Shown in pieces: positions 3,406 to 25,472 of a stretch of 64,000 nucleotides of DNA. The stretch comes from an uncultured Acidobacteriota bacterium. GTDB taxonomy: Bacteria > Acidobacteriota > UBA6911. Made by a program: the position numbers and the translations under genes. The notes under the pieces were generated by a model, which ran no database searches, was not told where the DNA came from, and saw nothing but the letters and a program-made list of their open reading frames with translations. Within the stretch, counting starts at the first letter, position 1, and each line of letters opens with the position of its first letter. The stretch lies in NCBI GenBank assembly GCA_963843575.1, contig CAWJKZ010000024.1, positions 1 to 64,000 of the forward strand, written 5' to 3'.

Positions 3406-4762
3406 ATGCGCAAAACCGTGCTCGGCAGGTTATTCGCCAAGGCCCTGAGTCTCATGCGGGTCAGCGGCACGGCCGCTTCCCGCTGGGCATGGAGTTGGAT
3501 CTCGGAGCCGTATACCGGGGCATGGCAGAAAAACGTCGTCGAACTCGACACCCAGGAGACCCTTCTCCGGAACTCCGCGGTCTATGGTTGCGTCACGGGT
3601 ATCGCCGATGATGTGGCAAAGCTCCGGATAAAGCTGACGACGAACAAGGACGGAATCTGGACGGAAATTACTTCGGGCTCGCCCTGGCTGCCGGTCCTGC
3701 GAAAGCCCAATCACTACCAGAACCGGATCAAGTTCATCGAGTCGTGGGTCCTCAGCAAGCTCCTGGCCGGCAATACCTACGCGCTCAAGAAGCGCGACGA
3801 CCGAAATGTTGTAAACGCGCTCTACGTGCTCGATCCGAAGCGCGTCTATCCACTTGTGGCCGAGGATGGCGGAGTCTACTACGATCTGCAGCAGGATTTC
3901 ATTTCCCAGCTTCCGGAACACGTCATCGTGCCGTCGCGGGAAATCATTCACGACATGATGCCGTGCTTCACCCATCCCCTGATCGGGACGCCTCCGTTGT
4001 ACGCCTGCACCTACTCCGCCACCTTGGCCAACCGGATCCAGGAGCACAGCACGGTCTTCTTCGACAACCGGTCGCTTCCCGGCGGCATCCTCACGGCACC
4101 CGGAAAGATCAACGACGAAACGGCGATCCGGATCAAGAAGGATTTCGAGAAGAACTTCTCGGGCGAAAAGGTCGGGCGGCTGGCAGTCTTGGGCGACGGG
4201 CTGAAATTCGAGCCCATGCAGGCCACGGCCGAGGCGAGCCAGCTTGCAGAGCAATTGAAGCTCACCGTCGACGATATTGCCCGCGCCTTCCATTACCCGA
4301 TCTTCAAGCTGGGCGGCGCCCTGCCGCCCGTACGCGGGCAATGTCGAAGCTCTGATCATCTCGTACTACACGGATTGCCTGCAGATCCTTATCGAGTCGC
4401 TCGAGCTGTGCCTGGATGAAGGTCTTGCGCTGCCGGGCGATTACGGCACGGAATTCGACCTCGACAACCTGATGCGAATGGATACCGCAGGCCTGTACAA
4501 GTCCAACAGCGATGCTGTAGGCGGCGGCTGGATGGCTCCTGACGAAGCGCGTTTCCGCGCCAACATGGGTAAGACACCGGGCGGTGCCGCGCCATACCTC
4601 CAGCAGCAGAACTACAGCCTGGCGGCTCTCGCCAAACGTGATGCGCAGGAAGACCCTTTTGCCAAATCTCAGGCCCCGGCCGCAACTCCGCCGACGCCGT
4701 TGTCGGAGGATGAGCTCGAGCTGCTCTATGGCGCGGAGCTGCGAAAGGACTTTGCGGCATGA
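3406..4762 (+). CDS. Phage portal protein (frameshift near 4330)
   Basis: EPYTGAWQKN, VLRKPNHYQNRI.F, KLLAGNTY, PGGILTAPG, QLAEQLK, Y.DCLQ..IESLELCLDEGL, YLQQQNYSLAAL. Confidence 0.92.
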
Positions 4763-7114
4763 TGGACGCAACCGAAAGATCGGCGTTATTCAAAGCCCTC
4801 ACGACAGCCGTGAAGGAGTACGTCTCCGGCATCGTACGCGGACTATCCGAACGTTTCGATCGAGTTGAGAGGCGACTCGATACGATTTCCGTGCTTAAGA
4901 CCGAGCGCGGTGAGAAGGGTGAGAAGGGAGACCCCGGGCCCTCCTGGCGAGTCGATTGTCGGACCCAAGGGCGAAAAGGGCGATCCTGGGGAGTCAATTC
5001 TCGGACCGGCTGGCCCAGCAGGGGAATCCATTGTCGGTCCCAAAGGGGAGAAAGGTGACTCGGGGGTATCGATAGTCGGTCCTCGCGGAGAAAAAGGCGA
5101 TTCCATTATCGGCCCCGCAGGTCCCAAAGGGGATCCAGGAGAATCGATTGTCGGTCCTCGCGGTGAGAAGGGCGAATCAATTGTTGGACCGCCGGGTCCC
5201 AAAGGGGAGAAGGGGGATCCAGGCGAGTCAATTCTCGGCCCGGCGGGCCCCAAAGGAGACCCCGGCGAGTCTATCGTTGGACCTCGGGCCCCAAGGGTGA
5301 GAAGGGTGACCCGGGAGAATCCATTGTCGGCCCTCCAGGCCCGAAGGGGGAAAAAGGGGACCCCGCAGAATCCGTTGTCGGACCTCAGGGCCTGCCCGGG
5401 GAGTCAGTAGTCGGACCCCGTGGGGAAAAAGGAGATTCCATCGTCGGGCCCGCAGGCCCGAAAGGTGACCCGGGCGAGTCGATCGTTGGACCTCAGGGCC
5501 CCAAGGGTGAGAAAGGTGACCCCGGGGAATCCATTGTCGGACCTCAGGGCCCGAAGGGGGAGTCCATAGTCGGACCCAAAGGAGATTCCATCGTCGGGCC
5601 TGCAGGCCCCAAAGGTGACCCAGGCGAGTCTATCGTCGGACCTCAGGGCCCAAAGGGTGAGAAAGGTGACCCGGGGGAATCCATTGTCGGACCTCAGGGC
5701 CCGCCTGGGGAGTCGATAGTCGGACCCCGTGGGGAAAAAGGAGATTCCATCGTCGGGCCCGCAGGCCCGAAAGGTGACCTCGGCGAGTCGATCGTTGGAC
5801 CTCAGGGCCCCAAGGGTGAGAAAGGGGACCCTGGAGAATCCATTGTTGGGCCTCAAGGCCCGCCTGGGGAGTCCATAGTCGGACCCAAAGGAGATTCCAT
5901 CGTCGGGCCCGCGGGCCCAAAAGGTGATCCAGGCGAGTCGATCGTCGGACCTCAGGGCCCCAAGGGTGAGAAAGGGGACCCCGGAGAATCCATCGTCGGG
6001 CCTCAGGGCCCGCCCGGGGAGTCAGTAGTCGGACCCCGTGGGGAAAAAGGAGATTCCATCGTCGGGCCCGCAGGCCCGAAAGGTGATCCGGGCGAATCTA
6101 TCGTTGGACCTCAGGGCCCTAAGGGTGAGAAAGGAGACCCAGGTGAATCTATCGTCGGACCCGCAGGGCCAAAGGGGGAGAAAGGGTGACCCTGGAGAAT
6201 CCATTGTTGGGCCTCAGGGCCCGCCTGGGGAGTCGATAGTCGGACCCGGGGAAAGGAGATTCCATCGTCGGGCCTGCGGGCCCAAAAGGTGATCCGGCGA
6301 GTCTATCGTCGGACCTCAGGGCCCCAAGGGTGAGAAAGGAGACCCGGGTGAATCTATCGTCGGACCCGCAGGGCCAAAGGGCGATCCCGGGGAGTCCGTC
6401 GTCGGACCTCAGGGTCCTCCTGGGGAATCTATCGTCGGACCCCGCGGAGAAAAGGGGGATCCCGGAGAATCCATTGTCGGGCCTCAGGGCACGCCTGGGG
6501 AGTCGATAGCCGGCCCTTGCGGTGAGAAGGGCGAAAAGGGAGATCCGGGCGAATCGATAATCGGCCCGCAGGGGCCGCCTGGAGCTCCTGGACGTGATGC
6601 CCTGCAGGTTGATGTCCTGCCTGCGGTGGACCTGTCGCGCTCCTATCCACGCGGCACCTATGCCCGTCACGACGGCGGCATCATCCGTTCGTTCCGCGAC
6701 ACCATCCCCGGGGCCGAGCTGCGTACCGCCGGCTGGGAGGTGGCGATCGCCGGCGTCGCCGACCTTGGTGTCAGCCAGGGCGACGACCCACGCGAATTCA
6801 GCGTTCTCCTCCGTCTCACAGGCGGGGAGCTCCGAGCATTGCAGTTCCGCATCCCCTGCATGATCTACCGGGAAATCTACAAGCCCGACGCGAAATACCG
6901 CCAGGGCGACGTCGTGACCTGGGGCGGGTCCGCGTGGCATTGCCAAGTCGACGACCCGAAATCCAGCCCCGGCAAGAACGGGGAGTGGAAGCTCATGGTG
7001 AAGGAAGGGCAGCGCGGCAAGGACGGCAAGGACGGGCAACCTGGGCCTGAAGGCCCGCCCGGACGAGACGGCAAAGATCTCACCCAGCTGGCATTCGACG
7101 GCAAAAAACACTGA
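4759..7114 (+). CDS. Collagen-like virion protein with C-terminal globular, CBM5/12-like segment (indel-split)
   Basis: Short coiled-coil N-terminus, ~1.7 kb of Gly-X-Y repeats, C-terminus [37 protein letters not shown] typical of the gene following the portal in this head architecture. Confidence 0.85.
4909..6600 (+). repeat. Collagen-coding tandem repeats, about 40 G(E/D)S(I/V)xGP units, with a 309-bp higher-order period
   Basis: tcggaccccgtggggaaaaaggagattccatcgtcgggcccgcaggcccgaaaggtga recurs at 5411, 5720 and 6029. Confidence 0.9.
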
Positions 7115-8841: not shown

Positions 8842-9522
8842 ATGCACGCCAATCCTCTGGTTTCCTGCATTATGCCGACGTTTGACCGCCGGCCCTTCAT
8901 CCCGGCCTCGGTCGCATGCTGGCTGGCTCAGGACTATGAGAACCGCGAACTGATCGTTCTCGACGACGGTAAGGACAAAATAAAGGACAGGCTCCCGGAG
9001 GATCCCCGGATCTGGTATTACGAGATCTCGCCGAGGGAACTCACGGGAAGAAAGCTCAATCACTGCTGCGAGCTCGCGCGCGGTGAAATCATCTGCCGGT
9101 TTGATGATGACGATTGGTCGAGCAACGACAGGATCTCTGACCAGGTCCGGCGCCTTCAGGCCGGCGGCGCGCCCGTCACCGGCTACAGCCACATGTTCTT
9201 TTGGAACATGATCAGAGGGGTGGCCAGCCTCTATCGGCCGAAACGACCCGACTGGATCGCCGGCACGAGCTTCTGCTTCCTCAAGGAATTCTGGCAGACT
9301 CATCAATTCCACGAAATACACCAGGGTTCCGACAGCAAATTCATAGGCTCGCTGATGGGTTCGGGGCTCATTGATCCATCGAGCGATCCTTGTCACATGG
9401 TGGCCCGCAGCCACAACATGCATCCCACCTGGCCCCGGGGAATCGTTGGGGATCCCATCAACAGAGGACAGCTGCCACAGGAGTTCTGGCAGAACGAGAA
9501 ACTCGTGAGACTGCACGCATGA
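8842..9522 (+). CDS. Glycosyltransferase family 2 (paralogue of 7606-8272)
   Basis: LVSCIMPTFDRRPFI, RELIVLDDG, CELARGEIICRFDDDDWS, GAPVTGYS. Confidence 0.9.
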   Translation: MHANPLVSCIMPTFDRRPFIPASVACWLAQDYENRELIVLDDGKDKIKDRLPEDPRIWYYEISPRELTGRKLNHCCELARGEIICRFDDDDWSSNDRISDQVRRLQAGGAPVTGYSHMFFWNMIRGVASLYRPKRPDWIAGTSFCFLKEFWQTHQFHEIHQGSDSKFIGSLMGSGLIDPSSDPCHMVARSHNMHPTWPRGIVGDPINRGQLPQEFWQNEKLVRLHA

Positions 9523-10548
9523 AGCTGACTGTTGTCATCGTTCAAAGCTCGGAGTTACCGCTCGCTTATCTCGCGCAGAATTTTGGATCCCTGAAAGAAT
9601 GGAACGCTGACGGCCTTTCGGATACGCAATTCGTCGTTATCTCACAGATGAAGGATTCCGGCCCGCTGAAGGAGCTCTGCGAAAAAAGCGGTCTTGCGAT
9701 CGATGTCATCTGCCCCGTCCAGGACTTTGTGGCGGATTGCCCCGTCTGGGACGTGCTCGCGTCACTGAGGGAAGCGTGGCCGAGCTTCCATGGGGACTAT
9801 CTATCGATACAGCATCCGGAGTTTATCTGGGCTCCCGGCAGACTCCGCCGAACGATTGACTACCTCAGTGCAGCGAAAACAGTTTCTCGTGCTCGGCAAT
9901 CTCAGGCGGCCCGTCGAAAAGGGGAAGGTTTACAGCCGGCACGATAGGAAGGGGTCCGACACTCTGACTTCCGCCATGTCCGCGGGCCACTGGACCGAGG
10001 CAGCGCAGATAGCAGAAACCGTGAATACGGTGCATTGGATTTACTGGAATGGTGCGCCGAGTCCGAAAGAAAACGGGTGGCTCGAGGACGTCTTTTTCGC
10101 CGACCGAGGATGGCTCGAAGCCTGGAAGATGCCCACTCACGGCGGCCGGCAGCCGTTCCAGGATATTTATGACCTTGTGGGCCGCGCCGGCCAGACCATG
10201 AGCAGATTCCGGATGATGCCCGTCGTTTCCAGGATGCCATTGGAGACGAACCGGATGATTCATCTCTGGCATCCGCGGGTCTGGAGCACCTGGACCATAG
10301 AGATGCGGGATTACTTCCTGAAACGTCCCGAGTGGCGAGGCACCGAGTTCGCCAATGCCATCCTCTGGCGGGAACTCATCGAGCTGCGCAAGCGATCGGA
10401 CAAGGGTCGCTTCAGGGCGGTAGTCCAGTTGCGAATGGGAGCACGCGGCACCGTGACGCGATATGGAATGGAGTTGCGGGCCTGGCTCGCGCACGGGGGT
10501 ACGAACCAGCTCCGGGCTTTCTACGACTCGCGGAAGGGCCAAGCATGA
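9519..10548 (+). CDS. Hypothetical protein, possibly a divergent GT-A-fold enzyme (frameshift near 9875)
   Basis: Starts MKLTVVIV; GDYL.I.HPEFIW; WLED; MIHLWHPR resembling a GT C-terminal HxxH; translationally coupled to both neighbours. Confidence 0.5.
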
Positions 10549-11055
10549 AGACCGCCGAAATCGTCCGGAATTCGAATATCTGGGAACTGCGCTGGCCGTA
10601 CTCCGGAGTTCGTGGACGAACTCCTCGAGCCCCATTCCGGAGGGAAAGGTCCTCGAGATCGGTGCAAGGACGCCCAGGTCGTTCCCGGATCGGACGGACT
10701 CGACATCGTTCAGTGGGAATGGTCCGCTCACCAATCATCCAACGTTTCGTTCAGTGGGACATCAGGCAAGTGCCCTGGCCGAAGGCCGACAAAGCAGTAC
10801 GACCTCGTTCTGGCCCTCGAGGTCTGGGAGCATCTCTACGAGCGTGAGGTCGAGGCATTCCGAGAATTGAAACGGATTACGCGCCCGCGCAATTCTCAGC
10901 TGTCCCTATCTGTGGAAACAGTCGAAGCACCGGAATCATGTCGGGCTCACATACCGCAAATCCGACAATGGACTGACCATTGCCCGATGAGCTTTTGCGA
11001 GGTGGTCGTGCCCGCCGGAGTGGCCGGATCTGCGTCACATAGTTGCAATGTTTGA
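10545..11055 (+). CDS. Class I SAM-dependent methyltransferase (indel-split)
   Basis: KVLEIGA motif I and YDLVLALEVWEHL...AFRELKR. Confidence 0.7.
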
Positions 11056-11106
11056 ATTCCACTAAAAGCAGAGGAACCGGCGACAGCCGAAAGGGAGATA
11101 TTCACA

Positions 11107-12797
11107 ATGGCAATCGGTGACGACTTCACAATTGCAGCAACATGGCGACATCCGGCACGCGTCGGGCACCGACACGGTACACCGGTGCTGGCATTCCACC
11201 GCTGGCTGCAGGACCTGGCGGACCAGGCGCAGGCTTCGGGCAACGACCTGCTGGACATCACCAGCATCACCCCGTCCGCCCGTGCGACCGACAACATCAT
11301 CACGCTGAACGCGCCGTACAACATCGACGACGCGGCGGCAGAGTTCCTGTACGACGGTTCCATCGAACAGGCCGGGGGCGACACGCTGTACTCCGGGCTG
11401 GTCGTCGTGGGCGCGGTGGCGGGGGCGACCACCCTGCAGGTCGTGCAGGACAACGCGCTGTACGACACCGATACGCCTTTCTGGGGCACCGGGATCAACG
11501 CGGACCCGACCGCGAACATCCTGTGCCGGATGCTGATCAAGACCCGCGATGTCCGGAGCGGACATCGACGGCAAGCGCATCCGCGTGTACGCCGCGGGAG
11601 TGGGGGCACACGTTCGCCGAGTTCTCCGTCACGATGGGCCTGGGCAACTCCGTCGCGGCTATCTTCACCCTGACCGACCTGAACAACGCGACCGCTCGCG
11701 GCGACGGTGGCGGGCTGGACCGACATCGTCGAACACCGAGGGCTACCAGACCATCGACCTGCAAAACGGCGACGGCGCGCAGCCCTACTACTCCAAGTGG
11801 GAAAAGATCGCGCACACGATCAACGACCTGTACGAGCGGGCCAAGTGGCTCACGCGCAGGGGGTCGTCCTCGACGATCCACGGCATGGACGGCGAACTGT
11901 TCCGGGGCATCACGCACCAGTGGAACTACGACAACGAAGCGAACGGGCCGTTCGTGGAAGACGAAGAACTGTCGTGGGGAACCGGCGCGACCGCAGGCAC
12001 GGGCATCCTGCTGGCGCTTCTGGACTCGGGTGCGACCGGGACCATGTGGATTCAGCTCCTGACCGGCGTGCCCCCGGTGGGCGACATGCAGGTTTCCGGG
12101 GCGACGGCGACCGCCGACGTGAACGGTGCGGTGACCTCGCGGTCGCTGTCTTCCGTGTTCATCGGCCAGTCCACGGGATCGGCGATGATTGGCGCGTTCG
12201 GCATCGGCGTCCTGCCTGCGGACCTGTCCAAGGACGACAAGCTGTTCGACCTTGCGAACACGCAGCGCACGCCTCCGAACAACGTCATCTTCTACGTCTA
12301 CGGGCTGGTGGCGAGCGAAGACCGCGTGCTGGTGACCAACGCGCAAACCGGAAGCATCGACTTCGACCAGATGACGCTGGCGACGGCGCTGACCGGCGGC
12401 GCAGAAACGCAGGTGGACGTGGGCGCGGGCAACATCCCTGCGGACACGCCGCAGACCGGGAACCTGCGCATCGAGCTGGACAGCGGGATCTACCGCAGCG
12501 TGCCTTACACGGCGCACGACGGCAGCAGGTACTTCACCATCGCGATCGACCAGCTTCGTCGATCCGAATGACGCGGCCAGCAGCAACAACGTGTTCCTGG
12601 CCTACATCGACAAGGACGCGGCCAGCGACACGGAGCAGGTCACGTTCAAGTACGTCGCGCCCAGAACGCTGTTCGTGCGCGTGCGCGACGGCGGTGGCGT
12701 TGCCAAGAGCAACACGCCGATCAAGACGTTCGAAACCACGGCGGGACTTGGCGTGGGCGGTGGATCGGCCACGGCGATCAGAACGCCCGACGCGTAA
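11107..12797 (+). CDS. Large virion structural/accessory protein (indel-split)
   Basis: Continuous T/G/A/D-rich beta-type sequence across frames (MAIGDDFTIAA...HRWLQDLAD...TPIKTFET...ATAIRTPDA); RBS upstream. Confidence 0.65.
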
Positions 12798-12952
12798 GGA
12801 TCTGGGTCTTGGCGGGGGCGAGCGCGTTCTAAGCAAACGCGGCCTGCGGGGTTCGAATCCCCCGGCGGCAATCCGGTTGGTGCTTAGACTGACCGAGAGG
12901 CCGTGCAGATAGGTCGGGGCAGCCCCTGCCAAGGATGGTTCGCACGGTTTGA
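12798..12952 (+). ncRNA. Candidate structured RNA / mini-insertion with T-loop and complementary loops
   Basis: 12-bp closing helix 12808-12819/12922-12933; three hairpins; GGTTCGAATCC; loops ctaagca and tgcttag are exact complements; acgcgtaa direct repeat on both sides. Confidence 0.65.
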
Positions 12953-12972
12953 ACGCGTAAAGCTGATAACAC

Positions 12973-14761
12973 ATGGCAACCCCAACGCTTGGCAGTCCGC
13001 CGACCACGATCAACGCGGCGGATGTCAACACCAACTGGCTGATCCTCACCACAGCCGACGCCGAGTTCAAAAAAGAAGGTCGAACTCGATGTCGGGCATC
13101 CTGCGCAACGACCTGGCGACAGGTCAGTACGGCCCGGTCACCGGCATTAGCATGGCGAACCAGCACATGCGTTGCTGGGTCAACTTCGGCGCTGTCCCGT
13201 ATCTGGCTGCGGAAGCGTCAGGCGGAATGGAGTTCTTGGGTCACCGACGGGACGAACACCGCCTACTACGTCATCTTCGGTTCAGACACGTATCTGGGCG
13301 GCTGGAAGAACTGCGTCGTCAATTTCGAAGCGCCCACTTCCGGCAACAAACCCACCGGCAACGTGACCACTTGGGGGTTGCGGCTTCACCGCACGGCAGC
13401 GCCTGCGCAGAAGATCAACACGTGGATCGACGCGCTGCGCTACGGCGACGGCTACGTCATTACGGGCGGGACTTCCGGCGACAAGGTCACGCTTGCGAAC
13501 ATCTATACCGTGGACAAGGCCAGCGCCTACGGCGTTCTGGACATGATCGAGGGCGTGTATCTTCGCGTACGGCAAGCTGACCTTCGGCAACGGCGCGACC
13601 ACGACCTACATCAACCTCGACAATGGTACGGTCCTGATCTTCACGAATTCCCGAAAGTCGCCACGGGGCTGTACGCGCTGATCGGGCAGGGGTCCGGCTG
13701 CAACATCGCCATCAGCGGGTCGGTCCTGCAATCGGCGGGCTCGACCGACGCCACGCGCTTCGTCGATCGACATGGACGACGCGAATTTCGCGGCGTTTTC
13801 AATGACCAGCAGCTTCATCACGCGGGCGGGCGCATGCAACTTCAAGTCCGGCCAGACGGTCACCGGGAACACATTCGACAACTGCGGCCAGATCACGGCG
13901 GCGGTGCGAACCTGTCCGGCAGCACCGTCAAGGGCTACGCGGGGACGGCAGACACGGCGGCGCTGCTCTGGGACGTGAACACGGACCCGGACACGCTGCT
14001 GGACAACATGGTGTTCACCAAGGGGTCGGCTTCGGCCCACGCGATCCAGTTCGGGACGAACAGCCCGACGACGATAAACCTGAACGGCATCACGTTCTCC
14101 GGCTACAACGCGTCCGACAGCCAGAACGATTCCGCGCTGCTGATTTCGCGCACGACCGGGACGGTCACGATCTACGCCAGCGGCTGCATGGGCACGGTCA
14201 GCTACAAGTCCGCCGGGGCGACCGTCGTCATCGTTCAGGATTCGGTCGCCTTTTCCGTGACCGTCAAGGACACGGCCGTCCCCCCGGTGGCGATCGACAA
14301 CGCACGGGTGCTGGTGCTGGCTGCGGACGCGGACGGGGCCGATGCCCTTCGACGAAACCGTGACGATCTCCAACAGCGGCACCACCGCCACGGTCACGCA
14401 CACGGCCCACGGCATGGCGACGAACGACAAGGTGCAGATCAAGGGCGCGAGCCTGTGGCAGAACAACGGCGTCTTCCAGATCACGAAGATCGGCGACAAT
14501 AGTTACACCTACACGCTGCCCAGCGCGCCCGGCAGTAGCCCAACCGGGACGATCAAGGCCACCTACGCAGCGCTGTACGGCCTGACCGGCCCTACGGGAA
14601 TCGTGTCAAGCAGCCGCGTGTTCACCAGCGACCAGCCTATTACGGGCCGCATTCGGAAGTACGGCACGTCGGCCCCGTTCTACCGGACTGCGGACATCAC
14701 CGGAACGATAGATTCCACCACCGGATATTCGACAACCGTTCAACTTCAACCGGACTCCTAA
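12973..14761 (+). CDS. Virion fibre/beta-rich structural protein (indel-split)
   Basis: T/S/G/N-rich sequence continuous across frames, beta-helix-like middle, C-terminal TATVTHTAHG...FQIT...YTY segment. Confidence 0.62.
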
Positions 14762-14764
14762 CGC

Positions 14765-15043
14765 ATGACCGATTATCAAAAACGCTACGAATCCGCGATG
14801 GTGGGGATCAGCGCGCTGCAACGCGAACTGGATCAGGTGAAGACGGAAAACGCCCGCCTGTTGCTGGAAAAGATCCAGTGGCAGTCCGAGAAGGACCGTC
14901 AGATGGCCGTCATCGCGCAGGCGGTGGGACAGGCCAATACCACCAGCAACGGCTATTTGGAAGAAAACAGAAAGCTGAAAGAAGAAATCCGGCGGCTGAA
15001 AGACGTGAACGATTCGCTGCAGGCACAATTGGACGCCGACTGA
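14765..15043 (+). CDS. Coiled-coil hypothetical phage protein
   Basis: Intact 92-aa ORF tightly packed between virion genes; heptad pattern. Confidence 0.7.
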   Translation: MTDYQKRYESAMVGISALQRELDQVKTENARLLLEKIQWQSEKDRQMAVIAQAVGQANTTSNGYLEENRKLKEEIRRLKDVNDSLQAQLDAD

Positions 15044-15044
15044 G

Positions 15045-15636
15045 ATGGCGATCACGATCAACTGGGCAACCAAGGTCATCAGCGTGCCACGGTCCGACAT
15101 GACGCTGGTGCAATCGGCCCCGGTGGAGGTCCGCGAACTGGACCTGAACGTGTTCCGGCAAGCGCTGAAGGATCTGGAGGACGCCGAAGCCGGAATTGTC
15201 TTTCTGGACACGCACCGCCACTTCACCGAAGTGTCACTTGGAACTCTGACGCTGGCCCGCGTGATCGAAATCATCAACGGCTACACGGTCACGTTCGAAG
15301 ACGGGCAATATGCCGTCAATCTCGTCGGTGCGAACAGCAACATCATGGATGTGCTGAACCCGAATCAGGTGTCCGTGCGGTCGAACAATTCGGCGGGGCT
15401 GATCGGCGCAGTCGGCGGTCAGGTTCTTGGACAGCGAAGACATCGAAACCGGGATCACTTTCCGGCACGCCCAGCGCCTTCAGCTGGCGGCTCTGGCGGG
15501 GATACTAGCGGGCGCGCAGCCGGGAAGCACGACCATTACCATCAAGAACGCGGGCAGCGGAACCAGAAGCCGGATCATCGCCACGGTGGACGAATACGGC
15601 AACCGCAGCGAACTGGTCTTCGACCTGACGGACTGA
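15045..15636 (+). CDS. Virion structural protein (frameshift near 15420)
   Basis: MAITINWATKVISVP...VIEIINGYTVTFEDGQYAVNLVGANSNI, then LAALAG...RIIATVDEYGNRS. Confidence 0.65.
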
Positions 15637-16701: not shown

Positions 16702-17082
16702 ATGCCAATTCCAACGGCGCAAGAGCTCGATCAGAGGATCACGTTGCAGACCGTTCTTGGCGGCCCTTATTCAGCGGTCACGAAGGTTTCCCAGAACGTG
16801 CAGACCTTTGCGCGACCCTGGGCCAAGATCACTCAGGTCGGCTCGGGCGAGCTCGGGTTTGAAAGCCAGGAGGAACGCAGTCAGCGCCTCCAGTGGGAGA
16901 TCTGGATCCGCTATCTCGACGGTGTCAGCGGCCTGATGCAGATCGTTTGGAAAGGCCGCACGCTCGTCCAGACAGGGACACCGCAGCTTGTCACTGACCT
17001 CAATAATCGGCGCTGGTGGGTAATGATGGCGCAGGAGACCATAGAAACTTCCGGTCTTCCGGGTTTGAAGTGGGTGGAATAG
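16702..17082 (+). CDS. Head closure protein (SPP1 gp16-like); last codons supplied by the MITE
   Basis: LDQRITLQ, WAKI, IWIRY.DGV...MQIVW.GR. Confidence 0.75.
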   Translation: MPIPTAQELDQRITLQTVLGGPYSAVTKVSQNVQTFARPWAKITQVGSGELGFESQEERSQRLQWEIWIRYLDGVSGLMQIVWKGRTLVQTGTPQLVTDLNNRRWWVMMAQETIETSGLPGLKWVE

Positions 17083-17315
17083 GGAACTTGCGCTGGCCTC
17101 ACCGCGCCCACCCTTGGGCCAAAGGCATAGGACGCCTCCGGACGATGGAGGCCATGACCTCGTAACCCCTTTCCCTCGTAGAAGATGCGATTTGGCCTGG
17201 CGCCCGCAGCGGTCAAGGGCGCGCCAGAGGCGCGGCGAAGCGAACCCTTAACGGCGAGGACGACAGGCCCAGAATCAACGACGAGGCAAAGGGGTTACCC
17301 ACTTCAAACCCGGAA
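17057..17315. mobile_element. MITE / internally deleted IS with 19-bp perfect terminal inverted repeats
   Basis: ttccgggtttgaagtgggt (17057-17075) vs acccacttcaaacccggaa (17297-17315); internal 17/18 IR at 17162-17179 and 17281-17298; no transposase ORF. Confidence 0.75.
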
Positions 17316-17530: not shown

Positions 17531-18526
17531 ATGAAAACCTATCCAACTGTAAGTCTCTTTAGATGTGCTATCGCGTTCACCATGTTGTTGGCATCTCAAT
17601 CACTGAATGCCCAATCAACTGTCAGCATCACGCTTTTCAATACCGGAGTTCAGGACGACGGAACTCTTGTGCCGGACGGTGGCGTAGATCCGCACTACAC
17701 ACTCATCAGCAGTGATGATGCACGATTCCCGGCGCCGGGAAATACTTTCACTCTCCCAAGCCCCGACGAATTCCCTTTCGCATCCGGTCTTTGGGTATCG
17801 AATACTCCGATCTCGAAATGGATCGCACCCAACCCCGAGAACCTCACCAGCTATGCTCTGGGATATTACGTATACCGAACTACTTTCTCTCTCCCGGAAA
17901 CGTTTGATTCCACCACACAGGCAGCCTACATTACCGGCAGTTGGGCGTCGGACAACGCTGGCGTCGATATCCTAATCAACGGTGTCCACACCGGCAACTC
18001 AAACCCCGGAACGTGGGAACTCACCTATTTGTGGCCGCTCTCTATTACAAGCGGGTTTAGGGCTGGTCTCAATACATTGGATTTCGTCATTTTTGAGGAA
18101 GGGGGCACTCCGAGCGGCCTCCATGTTCAGTTGACGGGGATCGTGAACCTGGGTGCCAATCTGTTCAGTGAGGTTATCGTCAACGATAGGACGAGCTTTG
18201 TTGTCCAGGAAACCCTGTACGATCCAACCCCATGGCCGGGTGCTCCGGCCGGTCACTTTGTGATTTTCGCGCTTCTGACAAACACAAGTACGGACGTTCT
18301 TCAAATACCGATCAAAGCAATCGTGAGCACTTTGACCAATGGCAACATACTTATCACTGCTGCGGAAGGCGATGGCGGTGTGGGAAGCAGGCAGGGGATT
18401 GATGCTGGACCCGATGGCCTGCTGTTTCCAAACGAATCGGTCACCGTGCGGTTTAGGATCGGGCTGGCAAAGCGACGCGCGTTTACCTTTTCTGTTGACC
18501 TGTCCGGGACCGTTATTGGACCGTGA
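17531..18526 (+). CDS. Secreted two-domain beta-sandwich protein (cargo/moron)
   Basis: Signal peptide ending SLNA-Q; LFNTGV...DPHY...SKWI...YRTTF.L...W.SDN....ING...F..GLNTLDF domain of the type seen in PEP-CTERM exoproteins; visibly lower GC. Confidence 0.75.
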   Translation: MKTYPTVSLFRCAIAFTMLLASQSLNAQSTVSITLFNTGVQDDGTLVPDGGVDPHYTLISSDDARFPAPGNTFTLPSPDEFPFASGLWVSNTPISKWIAPNPENLTSYALGYYVYRTTFSLPETFDSTTQAAYITGSWASDNAGVDILINGVHTGNSNPGTWELTYLWPLSITSGFRAGLNTLDFVIFEEGGTPSGLHVQLTGIVNLGANLFSEVIVNDRTSFVVQETLYDPTPWPGAPAGHFVIFALLTNTSTDVLQIPIKAIVSTLTNGNILITAAEGDGGVGSRQGIDAGPDGLLFPNESVTVRFRIGLAKRRAFTFSVDLSGTVIGP

Positions 18527-19811: not shown

Positions 19812-20715
19812 ATGAGCACCGCACTCCAACTCGCCGACCGAGAGACATGGCTCCAGCAGCGGACGCTCGGTATCGGGGCCAGCGAGGCATCCACCATACT
19901 GAGACTCAACCCTTACAAATCCGCCTACACCCTCTGGGCCGAAAAGACGGGACTGATCGAGGCCGCGGATCTCTCGGACAACGAGGCGGTCGAGTGGGGC
20001 ATCGAGCTCGAGCCGCTGATCGCGAAGAAGTACGCGAAGGCAACCGGCAGGGAGCTGATCGATCCGGGCCGCTTCACGATCCAGCGGCATTCCGAGATCG
20101 ACTGGATGATTGCTTCGCTCGACCGAGTCATTCAGCCCATCGACAACCGCGGCCCCGGTGCCCTGGAGATCAAAACCACGGACGCACGGCACGCCGCGGA
20201 GTGGGACGAGGACGCTCCTGTCGGCTACCAGGTGCAGCTCATGCACCAGCTGGCCGTGACCGGTTTCCAGTGGGGAAGCCTGGCCGTGCTGATTGGCGGC
20301 CAGCAGTTCCGCTACATCGACTATCCCCGTAATAACGAGTTCATCGACCACCTCGTCCGGGCGGAGGCCGACTTCTGGAAGCGGGTCACGGAGCAGGAGC
20401 CCCCGCCGGCCGTGGACGGATCGGACTCCACGCGGGAGGCGCTGGCAAAGCTGTACCCGAAGGACAAGGGCACGACGTGCCTGCTGCCGCCCGAGACGTC
20501 GGGCTGGATCGAGCGCAGGGCGACCGCGAAGGCGGCGATCAGGGCGGCCGAGGCGGAAGTGCAGGAGTGCGAGAACTTCATCCGGGCCGCGATCGGAGAG
20601 CACTCGTATGGGTCTCATGGCTGACGGTTCCGGATTCGCATGGCGCACGCAGAAACGGGCCGGTTACACGGTACCCGCGAAGGAATTCAGAGTTTTGAGG
20701 GAGGTGAGGACATGA
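19812..20715 (+). CDS. YqaJ/lambda-exonuclease-like recombination nuclease (frameshift near 3' end)
   Basis: WL..R..GIGASE...L.LNPYKS...LW.EKTG, WG..LE, ASLDR, LEIKT, Y..Q..HQLAVTG. Confidence 0.92.
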
Positions 20716-23718: not shown

Positions 23719-23983
23719 GCGGCTCGTCGTTGTTCCAGTCAAACACCCATCGCCGATCCAACCGGCGGCAATGCACGAGCTTGCCGCGGCCAAGTATATC
23801 GGCACAAACCGCACCTATTTCCGCCAGCTGGTTGAACGGGGCGTTATCCCGTTCACGGTCCACCTCGTGGGCAAGGCCCGCCTGTATCTTCGATCCGATC
23901 TTGATGCGTACCTTTGCAGCCTCAAAAAGCGTAGTATGGCCTCGTGCGAAAACCCGCCATCTCCGAAAGAGGTGGCTCAATGA
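23711..23983 (+). CDS. xis: Excisionase-like HTH protein
   Basis: AAKYIG.......LV..G.IP......K..Y.RSDLDAY, coupled to the integrase start. Confidence 0.75.
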   Translation: MSERLVVVPVKHPSPIQPAAMHELAAAKYIGTNRTYFRQLVERGVIPFTVHLVGKARLYLRSDLDAYLCSLKKRSMASCENPPSPKEVAQ

Positions 23984-25036
23984 GCGTTCGATTGGACAAA
24001 GAGAGCGGCAATTGGTTCGTCGACACGCGCGCCTGGCCGGATGGCATCAGGACGCGCAAGTGGATGCCGGACCTCGAAACCGCGAACCGGATCAACAAGA
24101 AAATCGAGGTGGCCTGTGCTGACGAGGAGCGGATCTGGCGGCGGCTCCGCCGTGACTTGGGTCTCGACTTCAAGGCGCTGGGTACCTTTAAGAATTTCGT
24201 GGATACCATCTACGTACCGCAATACGTCACGGTCTACAACCGCGACGTCGGTAGCAAGCTGGCAAAGCTCAACATTCTGTGCCGACACCTCGGCAAGGTT
24301 TCGTTCGAGGGCATGAACCTTCAAAATGTTTGTCAATTCGTCGGCCGGCGCAAGGCTGACAAAAAGGCCGACACCACCATCCACCACGACCTTGACGTCC
24401 TTCATCACGTCTACGAGTGGGCGGTAGAGATGGAGTACCTGCTGTCCAACCCGATTGCCAAGATGAAGTTCGTCGACGAGGACACGCCTGAACGTCCCCG
24501 GCCGGCGGAAGAGGCAATTGACGACATCATGGAAAAACTCGACCAGCGCGCGCTTCCGGTGTTCGCATTCCTCCGCGACACTGGGGCTCGCCGCGGCGAG
24601 GCTATCACGCTACACCCCGACCAGCTGGACCTCTCTAGGTGCGAGGTCGTCCTCAAGAACATCAAGATCGGCAAGTCACGGTCGCGGCGGGTTCCCCTGA
24701 CGGATCTCGGCATCTGGGCCGTGCAGGCCATGCCCAGGGTCGGCGAATACATTTTTTACAATCCGGATAACCTGAAGCCGTGGACGGGTGATTCGGTGGC
24801 GCTGCAGTGGGAACGAGCCAGGGAAGCGGCAGGGCATCCCCGGCTCTGGATTCACGATTTGCGCCATGCCTACGCGATCAAGCTCGCGGAGGCGGGCTGT
24901 CCGATGCATTACATTTCGGCAATGCTCGACCACTCGTCCGTGGATTTCACCAGAACAAGAGTACGCGCGTTTCAGTCCTGAATCGGCATCGAAACACGTT
25001 TTAGAGGTGCTCCAAGGGTTGCGCGGCAAGAAGTAG
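23980..25036 (+). CDS. int: Tyrosine integrase (frameshift near 24955)
   Basis: TGARRGE, K, HDLRH, LDHSS, and the catalytic Y (YARF) in the shifted frame. Confidence 0.92.
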
Positions 25037-25108
25037 GGAAGGGCAGTATGTGGGCAGGGGCAATTTTTGACGGAAGTTCCGAAACGCTGCAAGTGCATTG
25101 ATTCTAAA

Positions 25109-25185
25109 TGGTACGCCTGGCTGGGTTCGAACCAGCGACCTTCGGCTCCGGAGGCCGACGCTCTATCCATCTGAGCTACAGGCGC
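25109..25185 (-). tRNA. tRNA-Arg: tRNA-Arg (anticodon CCG); likely prophage attachment site
   Basis: Cloverleaf, anticodon arm tcggc-ctCCGga-gccga, encoded CCA. Confidence 0.95.
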
Positions 25186-25214
25186 ACTTTGAAAGGCCTT
25201 CCCCCCAAGTTGGG

Positions 25215-25291
25215 TGGCGCACCCGGCCCGACTCGAACGGGCGACCTGCGGATTCGAAGTCCGACGCTCTATCCAACTGAGCTACGGGTGC
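25215..25291 (-). tRNA. tRNA-Arg: tRNA-Arg (anticodon TCG)
   Basis: Cloverleaf, loop ctTCGaa, encoded CCA. Confidence 0.92.
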
Positions 25292-25306
25292 CCCTCTTCG
25301 AAAGTT

Positions 25307-25383
25307 TGGGGTGAGCGAGGGGATTCGAACCCCCGGCCGCTGGAGCCACAATCCAGAGCTCTACCAACTGAGCTACGCTCACC
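25307..25383 (-). tRNA. tRNA-His: tRNA-His (GTG), including G-1
   Basis: Anticodon arm ctgga-ttGTGgc-tccag; C73 discriminator and CCA. Confidence 0.95.
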
Positions 25384-25395
25384 ACACAACCCGGG

Positions 25396-25472
25396 TGGTA
25401 CGCCCAGCAGGACTCGAACCTGCGACCCTCTGCTTAGAAGGCAGATGCTCTATCCACCTGAGCTATGGGCGC
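25396..25472 (-). tRNA. tRNA-Arg: tRNA-Arg (anticodon TCT)
   Basis: Anticodon arm tctgc-ctTCTaa-gcaga, encoded CCA. Confidence 0.95.

What the first reader, a model, noticed from the sequence alone, without database searches (positions are those of the whole stretch)
12790..12960. 155-bp multi-helix RNA-like element with T-loop and kissing loops, flanked by an exact 8-bp direct repeat, inside the virion operon
Seen: (1) acgcgtaa occurs at 12790-12797 (it contains the upstream stop) and at 12953-12960; removing one copy plus the insert leaves a 12-nt stop-to-ATG gap. (2) A 12-bp closing helix forms between cttggcgggggc (12808-12819) and gcccctgccaag (12922-12933), with one G-U pair. (3) Hairpin A is cgcgtt-ctaagca-aacgcg (12823-12841). 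(4) Hairpin B carries a canonical tRNA T-loop, gggg-TTCGAAT-cccc (12848-12862). (5) Hairpin C is cggttgg-tgcttaga-ctgaccg (12874-12895). (6) gcct/aggc closes B and C. (7) The loops of A and C are perfect 7-nt complements. There is no ORF and no terminal inverted repeat. Inference: a compact structured RNA that may have arrived by insertion with target-site duplication (SINE-like or ribozyme-like mobile RNA), or a cis-regulatory or assembly RNA of late genes. Complementary loops could also pair between molecules, as in phi29 pRNA.
Basis: partly seen in the sequence, partly recalled or inferred. Interest (0 to 1): 0.82.

Follow-up and report, generated by a model that had tools for sequence, protein, structure and literature searches.

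The report
Orphan folded spacer with tRNA-like arm
A 175-base non-coding spacer between two prophage virion genes can fold into a stable RNA shape that includes a copy of a tRNA arm, but it has no relatives anywhere we could search, so it is most likely a one-off insert with at best a local role in the late messenger RNA.

Summary
The sense strand folds better than shuffles: core z = -2.63, 3 of 200. The antisense strand does not (z = -0.47). The hairpin GGGG-TTCGAAT-CCCC is identical to host tRNA T-arms and is far from chance. The two complementary loops are also unusual (0 of 150 shuffles).

The 8-bp direct repeat is not significant (274 of 2000 shuffles; 61 of 277 real slices). There are no terminal inverted repeats, and the element is single-copy in its genome.

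It matches no Rfam family. That includes tRNA, tmRNA and YrlA, which Rfam holds and which scores well on control loci. No homologue was found in 169 related phage loci, IMG/VR pattern scans, 60 related genomes or GenBank phages. Covariation therefore cannot be tested.

Most relatives have a 2-15 nt gap at this junction. The nearest relative carries an unrelated, unstructured 110-nt spacer.

Best reading: a lineage-specific insert with a tRNA-derived arm, acting at most as a folded intercistronic mRNA spacer. Modest interest.

The parts
11107..12797 (+). Upstream gene: conserved ~555-aa beta-rich virion-block protein. In this assembly it reads in three frames.
   Evidence: tblastn of P0002 gives three pieces, 11107-11547, 11552-12541 and 12546-12794, in frames 1, 2 and 3. 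The family has 1406 hits. The C-terminus matches the family consensus ...SATAIRTSDA. The frameshifts are assembly errors, because host rpoB is split in the same way.
12790..12797 (+). First copy of acgcgtaa (last codons plus the TAA stop of the upstream gene)
   Evidence: Read. A repeat of this kind is at chance level.
12798..12972 (+). The whole 175-nt non-coding spacer
   Evidence: No GC3 signal. Single copy in the genome. No Rfam match.
12808..12819 (+). P1 clamp helix, 5' strand (the MFE fold adds 12807)
   Evidence: Pair probabilities 0.93-1.0
12823..12841 (+). Hairpin A (6 bp, loop ctaagca). Uncertain: it competes with an alternative helix, 12840-12846 / 12910-12916.
   Evidence: Pair probability about 0.28. 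The fold with A forced is -68.4 against an MFE of -69.4.
12847..12864 (+). tRNA-type T-arm: GGGG-TTCGAAT-CCCC (12848-12862), or a 5-bp stem with an 8-nt loop (12847-12864)
   Evidence: Identical 15-mer in host tRNA-His, tRNA-Ser and tRNA-Gln. It aligns to T-arm positions of the tmRNA and mascRNA models only. Pair probability 0.87-0.94.
12874..12895 (+). Hairpin C (7 bp with two G-U pairs, loop tgcttaga; can extend to 12872-12898)
   Evidence: Pair probability 0.98-0.99. Its loop is complementary to loop A; the loop-loop duplex is -8.4 kcal/mol.
12922..12933 (+). P1 clamp helix, 3' strand
12953..12960 (+). Second copy of acgcgtaa
   Evidence: Read. Not significant. Absent from L088.
12973..14761 (+). 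Downstream tail-fibre-like gene (594 aa and intact in L088). It is frameshifted in this assembly near 13081 and near 14200. There is no Shine-Dalgarno sequence before its ATG.
   Evidence: blastn to L088 5343-7127, 78% identity. tblastn pieces in two frames. A related contig has +A at 13081, which restores the frame. The C-terminal piece hits a baseplate-wedge PHROG. Upstream letters shown.

Best explanation
The 175-nt spacer is a single-copy, lineage-specific piece of non-coding DNA. It became fixed at the junction between a conserved virion gene and the exchangeable tail-fibre-like gene of a prophage that sits next to a tRNA cluster.

Part of it, the variable-loop and T-arm stretch, looks derived from a tRNA (His-like) gene. 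The rest has no detectable source.

It is transcribed as part of the late polycistronic mRNA (inferred from gene orientation, with no promoter or terminator signal). On that sense strand it folds into a 12-13-bp clamp helix. The clamp encloses a T-arm hairpin, a stable 7-10-bp hairpin and a third, less certain hairpin whose loop can kiss the loop of the second.

Most likely action (inferred, not shown): a cis-acting folded intercistronic spacer. It would break the tight translational coupling seen in relatives, so that the tail-fibre-like gene, which has no Shine-Dalgarno sequence here, is made at a different level. It could also serve as a barrier or cleavage site, with the tRNA-like arm as a possible handle for tRNA-processing enzymes, giving the upstream message a protected 3' end.

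It is not a tRNA, tmRNA, YrlA or any other Rfam family, and it is not a transposon-like insertion with a target-site duplication.
For: Non-coding status and position in a virion block:
- GC3 plots and homology place the upstream stop at 12797 and the downstream ATG at 12973.
- Capsid, portal, integrase and baseplate-like hits surround the site.

Insert relative to the family:
- Of 150 loci with a measurable junction, 99 have a gap of 30 nt or less, and the median is 12 nt (loci not de-duplicated).

Sense-strand folding:
- z = -2.40 and -2.63 for the sense strand against -0.47 for the antisense strand.
- The G-U pairs in P1 and hairpin C would be C-A mismatches on the other strand.

T-arm:
- It is identical to host tRNA T-arms, with 0.02 matches expected by chance.
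- The match to host tRNA-His extends into the variable loop. It covers 22 of 24 positions with two 1-nt gaps and scores 34, against a maximum of 30 in 100 shuffles.

Complementary loops: 0 of 150 shuffles reach the observed value.

No promoter-like or terminator-like site lies in 10500-15500 on the + strand, which fits read-through transcription.

The sequence is confirmed by an identical 240-nt public contig.
Against: - No homologue exists in anything searched, so there is no covariation support for any helix, and the statistical support for the fold is only moderate (3-4 of 200 shuffles).
- The nearest relative, L088 (75-81% nucleotide identity in the flanks), has an unrelated spacer at the same place. 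Interior alignment gives z about 0. That spacer is not significantly structured (z = -0.94, 35 of 200). A conserved need for a folded element at this junction is therefore not evident.
- Hairpin A and the gcct/aggc helix are minority conformers.
- There is no transcript-level evidence of any kind.
- The assembly carries many indel errors. The element's letters rest on one identical short contig that may come from the same sample.
Confidence: 0.42

Rival explanations
1. Functionless recombination scar. The spacer is leftover DNA from exchange of the tail-fibre module or from a decayed tRNA or moron gene. It is tolerated because it lies between genes, and its stable fold is a by-product of 63% G+C and an inherited tRNA arm.
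For: - It is an orphan: no homologue in 169 related loci, in its own genome, in 60 related genomes, in GenBank phages or in IMG/VR pattern scans.
- The sister phage L088 has a different, unstructured spacer at the same junction.
- Downstream genes differ widely among relatives.
- The fold z-score is only about -2.5.
Against: - The strand asymmetry of folding.
- The intact canonical T-loop.
- The loop-loop complementarity, which no shuffle reached.
- No relative carries a tRNA gene at this junction; 4 of 169 loci have tRNAs, all elsewhere.
Confidence: 0.3
2. Free-standing structured small RNA. It would be a tRNA-mimicking RNA cut out of the late transcript, built like bacterial Y RNAs of the YrlA type (closing stem - V hairpin - T-arm - acceptor-like hairpin). 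It might act as a decoy or tether for tRNA-binding host factors, or pair loop-to-loop between molecules.
For: - The order of elements (clamp helix, hairpin A, T-arm, 7-bp hairpin C) is the order stem-V-T-AS that Chen et al. 2014 describe for YrlA (PMC4201824, sections 5 and 6 read).
- A near-match to their 5' motif GNCGAAN0-1G is present: GGCGAGCG at 12817-12824, with one mismatch.
- The T-arm is canonical.
- The loops are complementary.
Against: - The Rfam YrlA model RF02553 scores 30-76 bits beside TROVE genes in control loci of the same phylum. It gives no match to this element at E<=10, either locally or in the whole genome, where only tandem tRNAs score.
- No TROVE/Rsr gene is found in the 88%-complete genome.
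- The nearly invariant D-arm of YrlA is not present; only a 3-bp candidate with probability 0.0 exists.
- There are no promoter or terminator signals.
Confidence: 0.12
3. Mobile element (MITE-, SINE- or ribozyme-like) that inserted with an 8-bp target-site duplication.
For: - acgcgtaa flanks the stretch.
- Most relatives have an 'empty' junction of 2-15 nt.
Against: - A repeat of this kind is at chance level: 274 of 2000 shuffles and 61 of 277 real slices.
- There are no terminal inverted repeats.
- The genome holds one copy, by BLAST and by covariance model.
- L088 shares the first ~12 nt after the stop, so the boundary is not at the repeat.
- No ribozyme family matches.
- For contrast, a real multi-copy palindromic element with 19-bp terminal repeats sits in the same prophage at 17057-17315.
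Confidence: 0.04

Closest known systems
YrlA / bacterial Y RNA-like RNAs (Rfam RF02553; Chen et al. 2014, PMC4201824)
   Same: A long stem formed by the 5' and 3' ends encloses a variable hairpin, a canonical tRNA T-arm and an acceptor-like hairpin, in the same order. YrlA RNAs also occur in phages (abstract and sections 5-6 read).
   Different: No score with the family's covariance model. No D-arm. No Ro60/TROVE gene in the genome, whereas YrlA genes lie within 4 kb of one. Here the element sits between virion genes on the mRNA strand.
tRNA genes and tRNA-derived fragments
   Same: The T-arm is identical to host tRNA T-arms. There is 22-of-24 similarity to the variable loop plus T-arm of host tRNA-His. 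Hairpin A and the T-arm are spaced roughly like an anticodon arm and a T-arm.
   Different: ARAGORN and the Rfam tRNA model find nothing. There is no acceptor 5' strand and no D-arm. The loop of hairpin A would give an anticodon AAG followed by C37; that this is not a normal bacterial tRNA feature is recalled, not tested. No tRNA gene with this 3' part occurs in 400 genomes of the phylum.
tRNA-like processing signals inside mRNAs (plant mitochondrial 't-elements'; RNase P cleavage of bacterial polycistronic transcripts)
   Same: A tRNA-like arm placed between coding regions of one transcript. This is the functional analogy behind the best explanation.
   Different: The analogy is recalled from general knowledge plus a search listing only. 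No cleavage has been shown here, and the element lacks the 7-bp acceptor plus T-stem stack in the tRNA topology.
phi29 pRNA (packaging RNA)
   Same: Similar size. Two loops that could pair between molecules.
   Different: No Rfam family matched at all. The element is not next to a packaging ATPase or a genome end. The phage has an integrase and an HK97-type capsid, unlike phi29-type phages (recalled). Oligomerisation cannot be tested here.

Membership tests
tRNA (RF00005 / ARAGORN) | Complete cloverleaf: acceptor stem, D-arm, anticodon arm and T-arm | tested here: not met
   ARAGORN finds 5 tRNAs in the window and none here. Rfam gives no tRNA match at the gathering score or at E<=10, even when the stretch is cut at 12822 to allow truncated matches. 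Only the T-arm is present.
tmRNA (RF00023) | tRNA-like domain plus tag reading frame | tested here: not met
   ARAGORN finds none in the window. The only match is 8.1 bits on the 15-nt T-arm. The genome's own tmRNA is elsewhere on the contig.
YrlA (RF02553) | Score with the family covariance model | tested here: not met
   No match at E<=10 in the local scans or in the whole-genome scan, where the lowest listed hit is 15.5 bits and all strong hits are tandem tRNAs. The model works on controls: 30-76 bits beside TROVE genes.
YrlA (RF02553) | Ro60/Rsr (TROVE) gene nearby on the same strand | tested here: not met
   PF05731 has 0 matches in the genome (88% complete). In the phylum sample, 11 of 201 genomes have a match, none in the same class.
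YrlA (RF02553) | Conserved T-arm and D-arm, and the 5' motif GNCGAAN0-1G | tested here: inconclusive
   The T-arm is met. The D-arm is not found; a 3-bp candidate at 12901-12917 has probability 0.0. The motif is present with one mismatch, GGCGAGCG. The feature definitions come from PMC4201824, section 6.
MITE / insertion with target-site duplication | Terminal inverted repeats, several copies, and a duplication beyond chance | tested here: not met
   No terminal inverted repeats. One copy. The 8-bp repeat occurs in 14% of shuffles and 22% of real slices.
Intrinsic terminator | G+C-rich hairpin followed by a run of T | tested here: not met
   No + strand site in 10500-15500. No T-run follows P1.
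Any curated RNA family (Rfam 15; 4227 models, including ribozymes and riboswitches) | Match at the gathering score | tested here: not met
phi29-type pRNA | Loop-loop pairing between molecules that forms a ring on the portal | not testable with these tools
   Only the loop complementarity can be shown.

The most novel reading that the evidence does not exclude
The element is the first seen member of a new class of phage RNAs. It would be a compact, Ro-independent tRNA mimic, cut from the late transcript. A clamp helix presents a genuine T-arm beside two hairpins whose 7-8-nt loops pair, either within one molecule to lock a tRNA-like L-shape or between molecules to build dimers or rings. It would then act as a decoy or scaffold for host tRNA-binding factors or for virion assembly.
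Probability: 0.07. Interest if true: 0.75.

Novelty: new variant of a known kind. Interest (0 to 1): 0.3.

Why it matters
If the fold is real and functional, it would be an example of a phage borrowing a tRNA arm to punctuate or tune its late mRNA. It could also be a Ro-independent relative of Y-like RNAs. Either would be a small but useful addition to the short list of structured phage RNAs.

As it stands the element is a single orphan sequence in an error-prone metagenome assembly. Its main value is as a negative lesson. The apparent target-site duplication is at chance level. A textbook T-loop alone does not make an RNA family. Covariation, the only decisive computational test, cannot be run.

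Tried and rejected
Homologue searches, all negative for the element:
- blastn and nhmmer against 86 and then 169 related loci.
- A single-sequence covariance model, R1, over the same loci (1.14 Mb), the window and the whole genome. With filters off on L019, L088 and L095, the best foreign hit was 20.9 bits inside a coding region, and the L088 spacer scored 7.3 bits.
- DNA search of 60 related genomes with 12300-13500.
- GenBank phages with 3.6 kb and with the 175 nt.
- IMG/VR exact-pattern scans.
- A T-arm-plus-downstream pattern in 400 genomes of the phylum gave two 3-mismatch hits, judged chance.

Close-relative protein scans with the window's own 340-aa fragment found nothing. Alignment-based scans gave the loci that were used. 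The metagenome scan's best relative is only 65% identical.

L088 as a homologue is rejected. Only the first ~12 nt after the stop and a short CAGCCCC align; the interiors are at shuffle level.

attP or an att remnant is rejected. Similarity to host tRNAs stops at the T-arm and variable loop. The prophage's integrase and its tRNA-Arg site are 11-12 kb away.

A decaying prophage is rejected as the cause of the frameshifts. Host rpoB comes back as 7 pieces in at least 4 open frames, so the indels are assembly errors.

Sequencing runs: no RNA holder is listed. Three DNA runs hold small shares (0.15, 0.07, 0.05). When laid, they gave one identical 240-nt contig, one L088-like 3' end and one relative with +A at 13081. 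No contig joined across the element.

Function of the 555-aa neighbour: there are no Pfam or PHROG hits. The AlphaFold model has pLDDT 85.4, but no PDB match has a TM-score above 0.2 over the whole chain.

They list phage YrlA RNAs and might bear on the Y-RNA comparison. For the literature on RNase P and intercistronic processing I saw only a search listing with abstracts.

Full report
**What is there.** The window is the first 64 kb of a 520-kb contig of a 6.68-Mb, 27-contig genome that is 88% complete. Bases 1 to about 25.1 kb are a prophage. It has an HK97-type capsid gene (1780-2976), a portal gene (3406-4419) and a family-2 glycosyltransferase (8842-9522). It also has a YqaJ recombinase (19812-20624) and a tyrosine integrase (23944-24981). 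The integrase abuts a cluster of four tRNA genes at 25109-25472.

The finding lies between two co-directional genes of the virion block. The upstream gene (11107-12797) belongs to a large unannotated family of ~555-aa proteins. The search returned 1406 hits at E<=0.001 among the 8000 candidates scored. The gene's C-terminus matches the family consensus. The downstream gene (12973-14761) is 78% identical in DNA to an intact 594-aa gene of the nearest relative, L088. Its C-terminal part hits a baseplate-wedge PHROG.

**Assembly quality.** Both genes are frameshifted in this assembly. The upstream gene reads in three frames. The downstream gene switches frame near 13081 and near 14200. This is not prophage decay. 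The host's own rpoB is recovered as 7 pieces in at least 4 open frames, so the assembly is riddled with indel errors. A related public contig carries one extra A at 13081 that restores the frame. The element itself is backed by a 240-nt public contig identical to 12801-13040, although that run may be the assembly's own source.

**The observation.** The sense strand folds to -82.9 kcal/mol over 186 nt (z = -2.40, 4 of 200 shuffles as good). The 136-nt core gives z = -2.63, 3 of 200. The antisense strand is ordinary (z = -0.47, 64 of 200). That fits the G-U pairs in the clamp helix and in hairpin C.

In the ensemble, the clamp helix P1, the T-arm and hairpin C are near-certain, with pair probabilities from 0.87 to 1.0. 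Hairpin A has only about 0.28 and gcct/aggc about 0.08. A competing pair of helices takes their place: 12840-46 with 12910-16, and 12865-69 with 12900-04. Forcing hairpin A costs only 1 kcal/mol.

Loop-loop complementarity of 6 nt or more among hairpins of near-optimal folds was reached by 0 of 150 shuffles. An 8-nt inverted repeat as such is common (48 of 300 shuffles). The T-arm 15-mer has 2 matches in the window, this element and tRNA-His, against 0.02 expected.

The 8-bp direct repeat is at chance level. It appears in 274 of 2000 shuffles and 61 of 277 real slices of the window.

**What it is not.**
- ARAGORN finds no tRNA or tmRNA here.
- Rfam 15 gives nothing at gathering scores for the whole window except the five true tRNAs.
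- At E<=10 on the local stretch, the only hits on the element are 15-nt alignments of the T-arm hairpin to unrelated or tRNA-clan models.

The architecture recalls bacterial Y RNA-like YrlA: a clamp stem, then a variable hairpin, a T-arm and a 7-bp hairpin. Chen et al. 2014 describe YrlA as stem, V, T, acceptor-like stem and D-arm, with a 5' GNCGAA motif (PMC4201824; abstract and sections 5 and 6 read). I tested this directly.
- Rfam holds YrlA (RF02553). It scores 30-76 bits next to TROVE genes in loci from the same phylum.
- It gives no match to this element locally or in a whole-genome scan, where only tandem tRNAs score.
- The genome has no TROVE gene.
- No D-arm can be drawn.

So the element may look somewhat like a Y RNA, but it is not a member of that family.

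**Origin.** The T-arm similarity to host tRNAs extends, for tRNA-His, into the variable loop. It covers 22 of 24 positions with two 1-nt gaps and scores 34, against a maximum of 30 in 100 shuffles. It does not extend into the acceptor strand. No tRNA gene with this T-arm plus downstream sequence was found in 400 genomes of the phylum. It is therefore not an att-site copy of a host tRNA. A tRNA-derived fragment is the most economical source for this part.

**Relatives.** I collected 169 loci that encode the upstream gene family. They came from IMG/VR, GTDB genomes and JGI metagenomes.
- None contains anything like the element by blastn, nhmmer or a covariance model built from the element.
- The element is also absent from the rest of its own genome, from 60 related genomes and from GenBank phages. 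Two IMG/VR pattern scans were also negative.
- Of the 150 loci where the next gene could be placed, 99 have a gap of 30 nt or less. The median gap is 12 nt (loci not de-duplicated). Several larger gaps hold small reading frames.

So the window's 175 nt is an insertion relative to the family norm.

The nearest relative, L088, is 75-81% identical in the flanking genes. It has its own 110-nt spacer. That spacer shares only the first ~12 nt after the stop and a short CAGCCCC with the window. Its interior aligns no better than shuffles. It is not significantly structured and matches no Rfam family. A public soil contig shows a third, L088-like version. No relative carries a tRNA gene at this junction.

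**Interpretation.** The mobile-element reading fails on every defining feature: no terminal repeats, one copy, a chance-level duplication, and a left boundary shared with L088. For contrast, a genuine palindromic repeat element sits in the same prophage at 17057-17315. It has a 19-bp perfect terminal inverted repeat, folds at z = -4.65 and has a 79%-identical second copy on another contig.

What remains is a single-copy, sense-strand-foldable spacer with a tRNA-derived arm, at a junction where tail-fibre modules are exchanged. With no promoter or terminator signal around it, it is most simply part of the late polycistronic mRNA.

I therefore favour, at about 0.4, a cis-acting folded intercistronic spacer. 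It would uncouple the two genes. The downstream ATG has no Shine-Dalgarno sequence here, unlike in L088. It may also provide a processing or 3'-protection site.

The main rival, at about 0.3, is that it does nothing. A free-standing tRNA-mimic RNA remains possible (about 0.1) and is the interesting reading. All functional steps are inference. Nothing at the RNA level could be observed, and no RNA run holds the sequence.

**Verdict.** The structure is moderately better than chance and the T-arm is genuine. The target-site duplication and the mobility story are not supported, and no known family fits. The element is an orphan, so the decisive covariation test cannot be done. Interest is modest until homologues or transcript data appear.

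Noticed in passing
window 17057-17315: A strongly folding palindromic element. It has a 19-nt perfect terminal inverted repeat (17057-17075 / 17297-17315) and a nested 25-nt repeat. MFE is -129.5 kcal/mol, z = -4.65, 0 of 200 shuffles. A 79%-identical second copy lies on contig C25 (260254-260517), and a 28-nt exact arm match on C18. No Rfam match. It looks like a MITE-type repeat inserted in the prophage just before a low-G+C gene (17531-18526) that encodes a protein with a signal-peptide-like start.
   Followed up: partly
whole genome G000; for example C24:252860-257103 (rpoB) and window 11107-14761: The assembly has frequent single-base indels. rpoB is recovered as 7 pieces in at least 4 open frames, and two adjacent phage genes carry about four frame switches. 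Gene calls and 'pseudogenes' in this genome should not be trusted without polishing.
   Followed up: yes
window 11107-12797 and alignment A1: The ~555-aa virion-block protein belongs to a very large family (1406 hits at E<=0.001 among the 8000 candidates scored) found on phage contigs from many habitats and host phyla. It has no Pfam or PHROG match. A confident all-beta AlphaFold model (pLDDT 85.4) has no convincing PDB fold match. Some members carry an in-frame ~80-aa insertion near residue 290.
   Followed up: partly
window 5200-6300: Repeated GGGCCCGCAGGCCCGA-type units form many inverted and direct repeats. I read these as collagen-like Gly-X-Y repeats of a phage fibre gene.
   Followed up: no
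loci L182, L183, L187, L188 (genomes of the same phylum): TROVE/Ro60 genes there are flanked by YrlA-like RNAs (30-76 bits) embedded in arrays of 5-10 tRNA genes. One sub-threshold Twister-sister hit (29.2 bits against a 34-bit gathering score) overlaps a YrlA match in L187.
   Followed up: no
window 23944-25185: The prophage integrase gene ends 128 nt from the 3' end of tRNA-Arg(CCG), the first of a tRNA-Arg/Arg/His/Arg cluster. This is the likely integration site. The other prophage end lies beyond the contig start.
   Followed up: no
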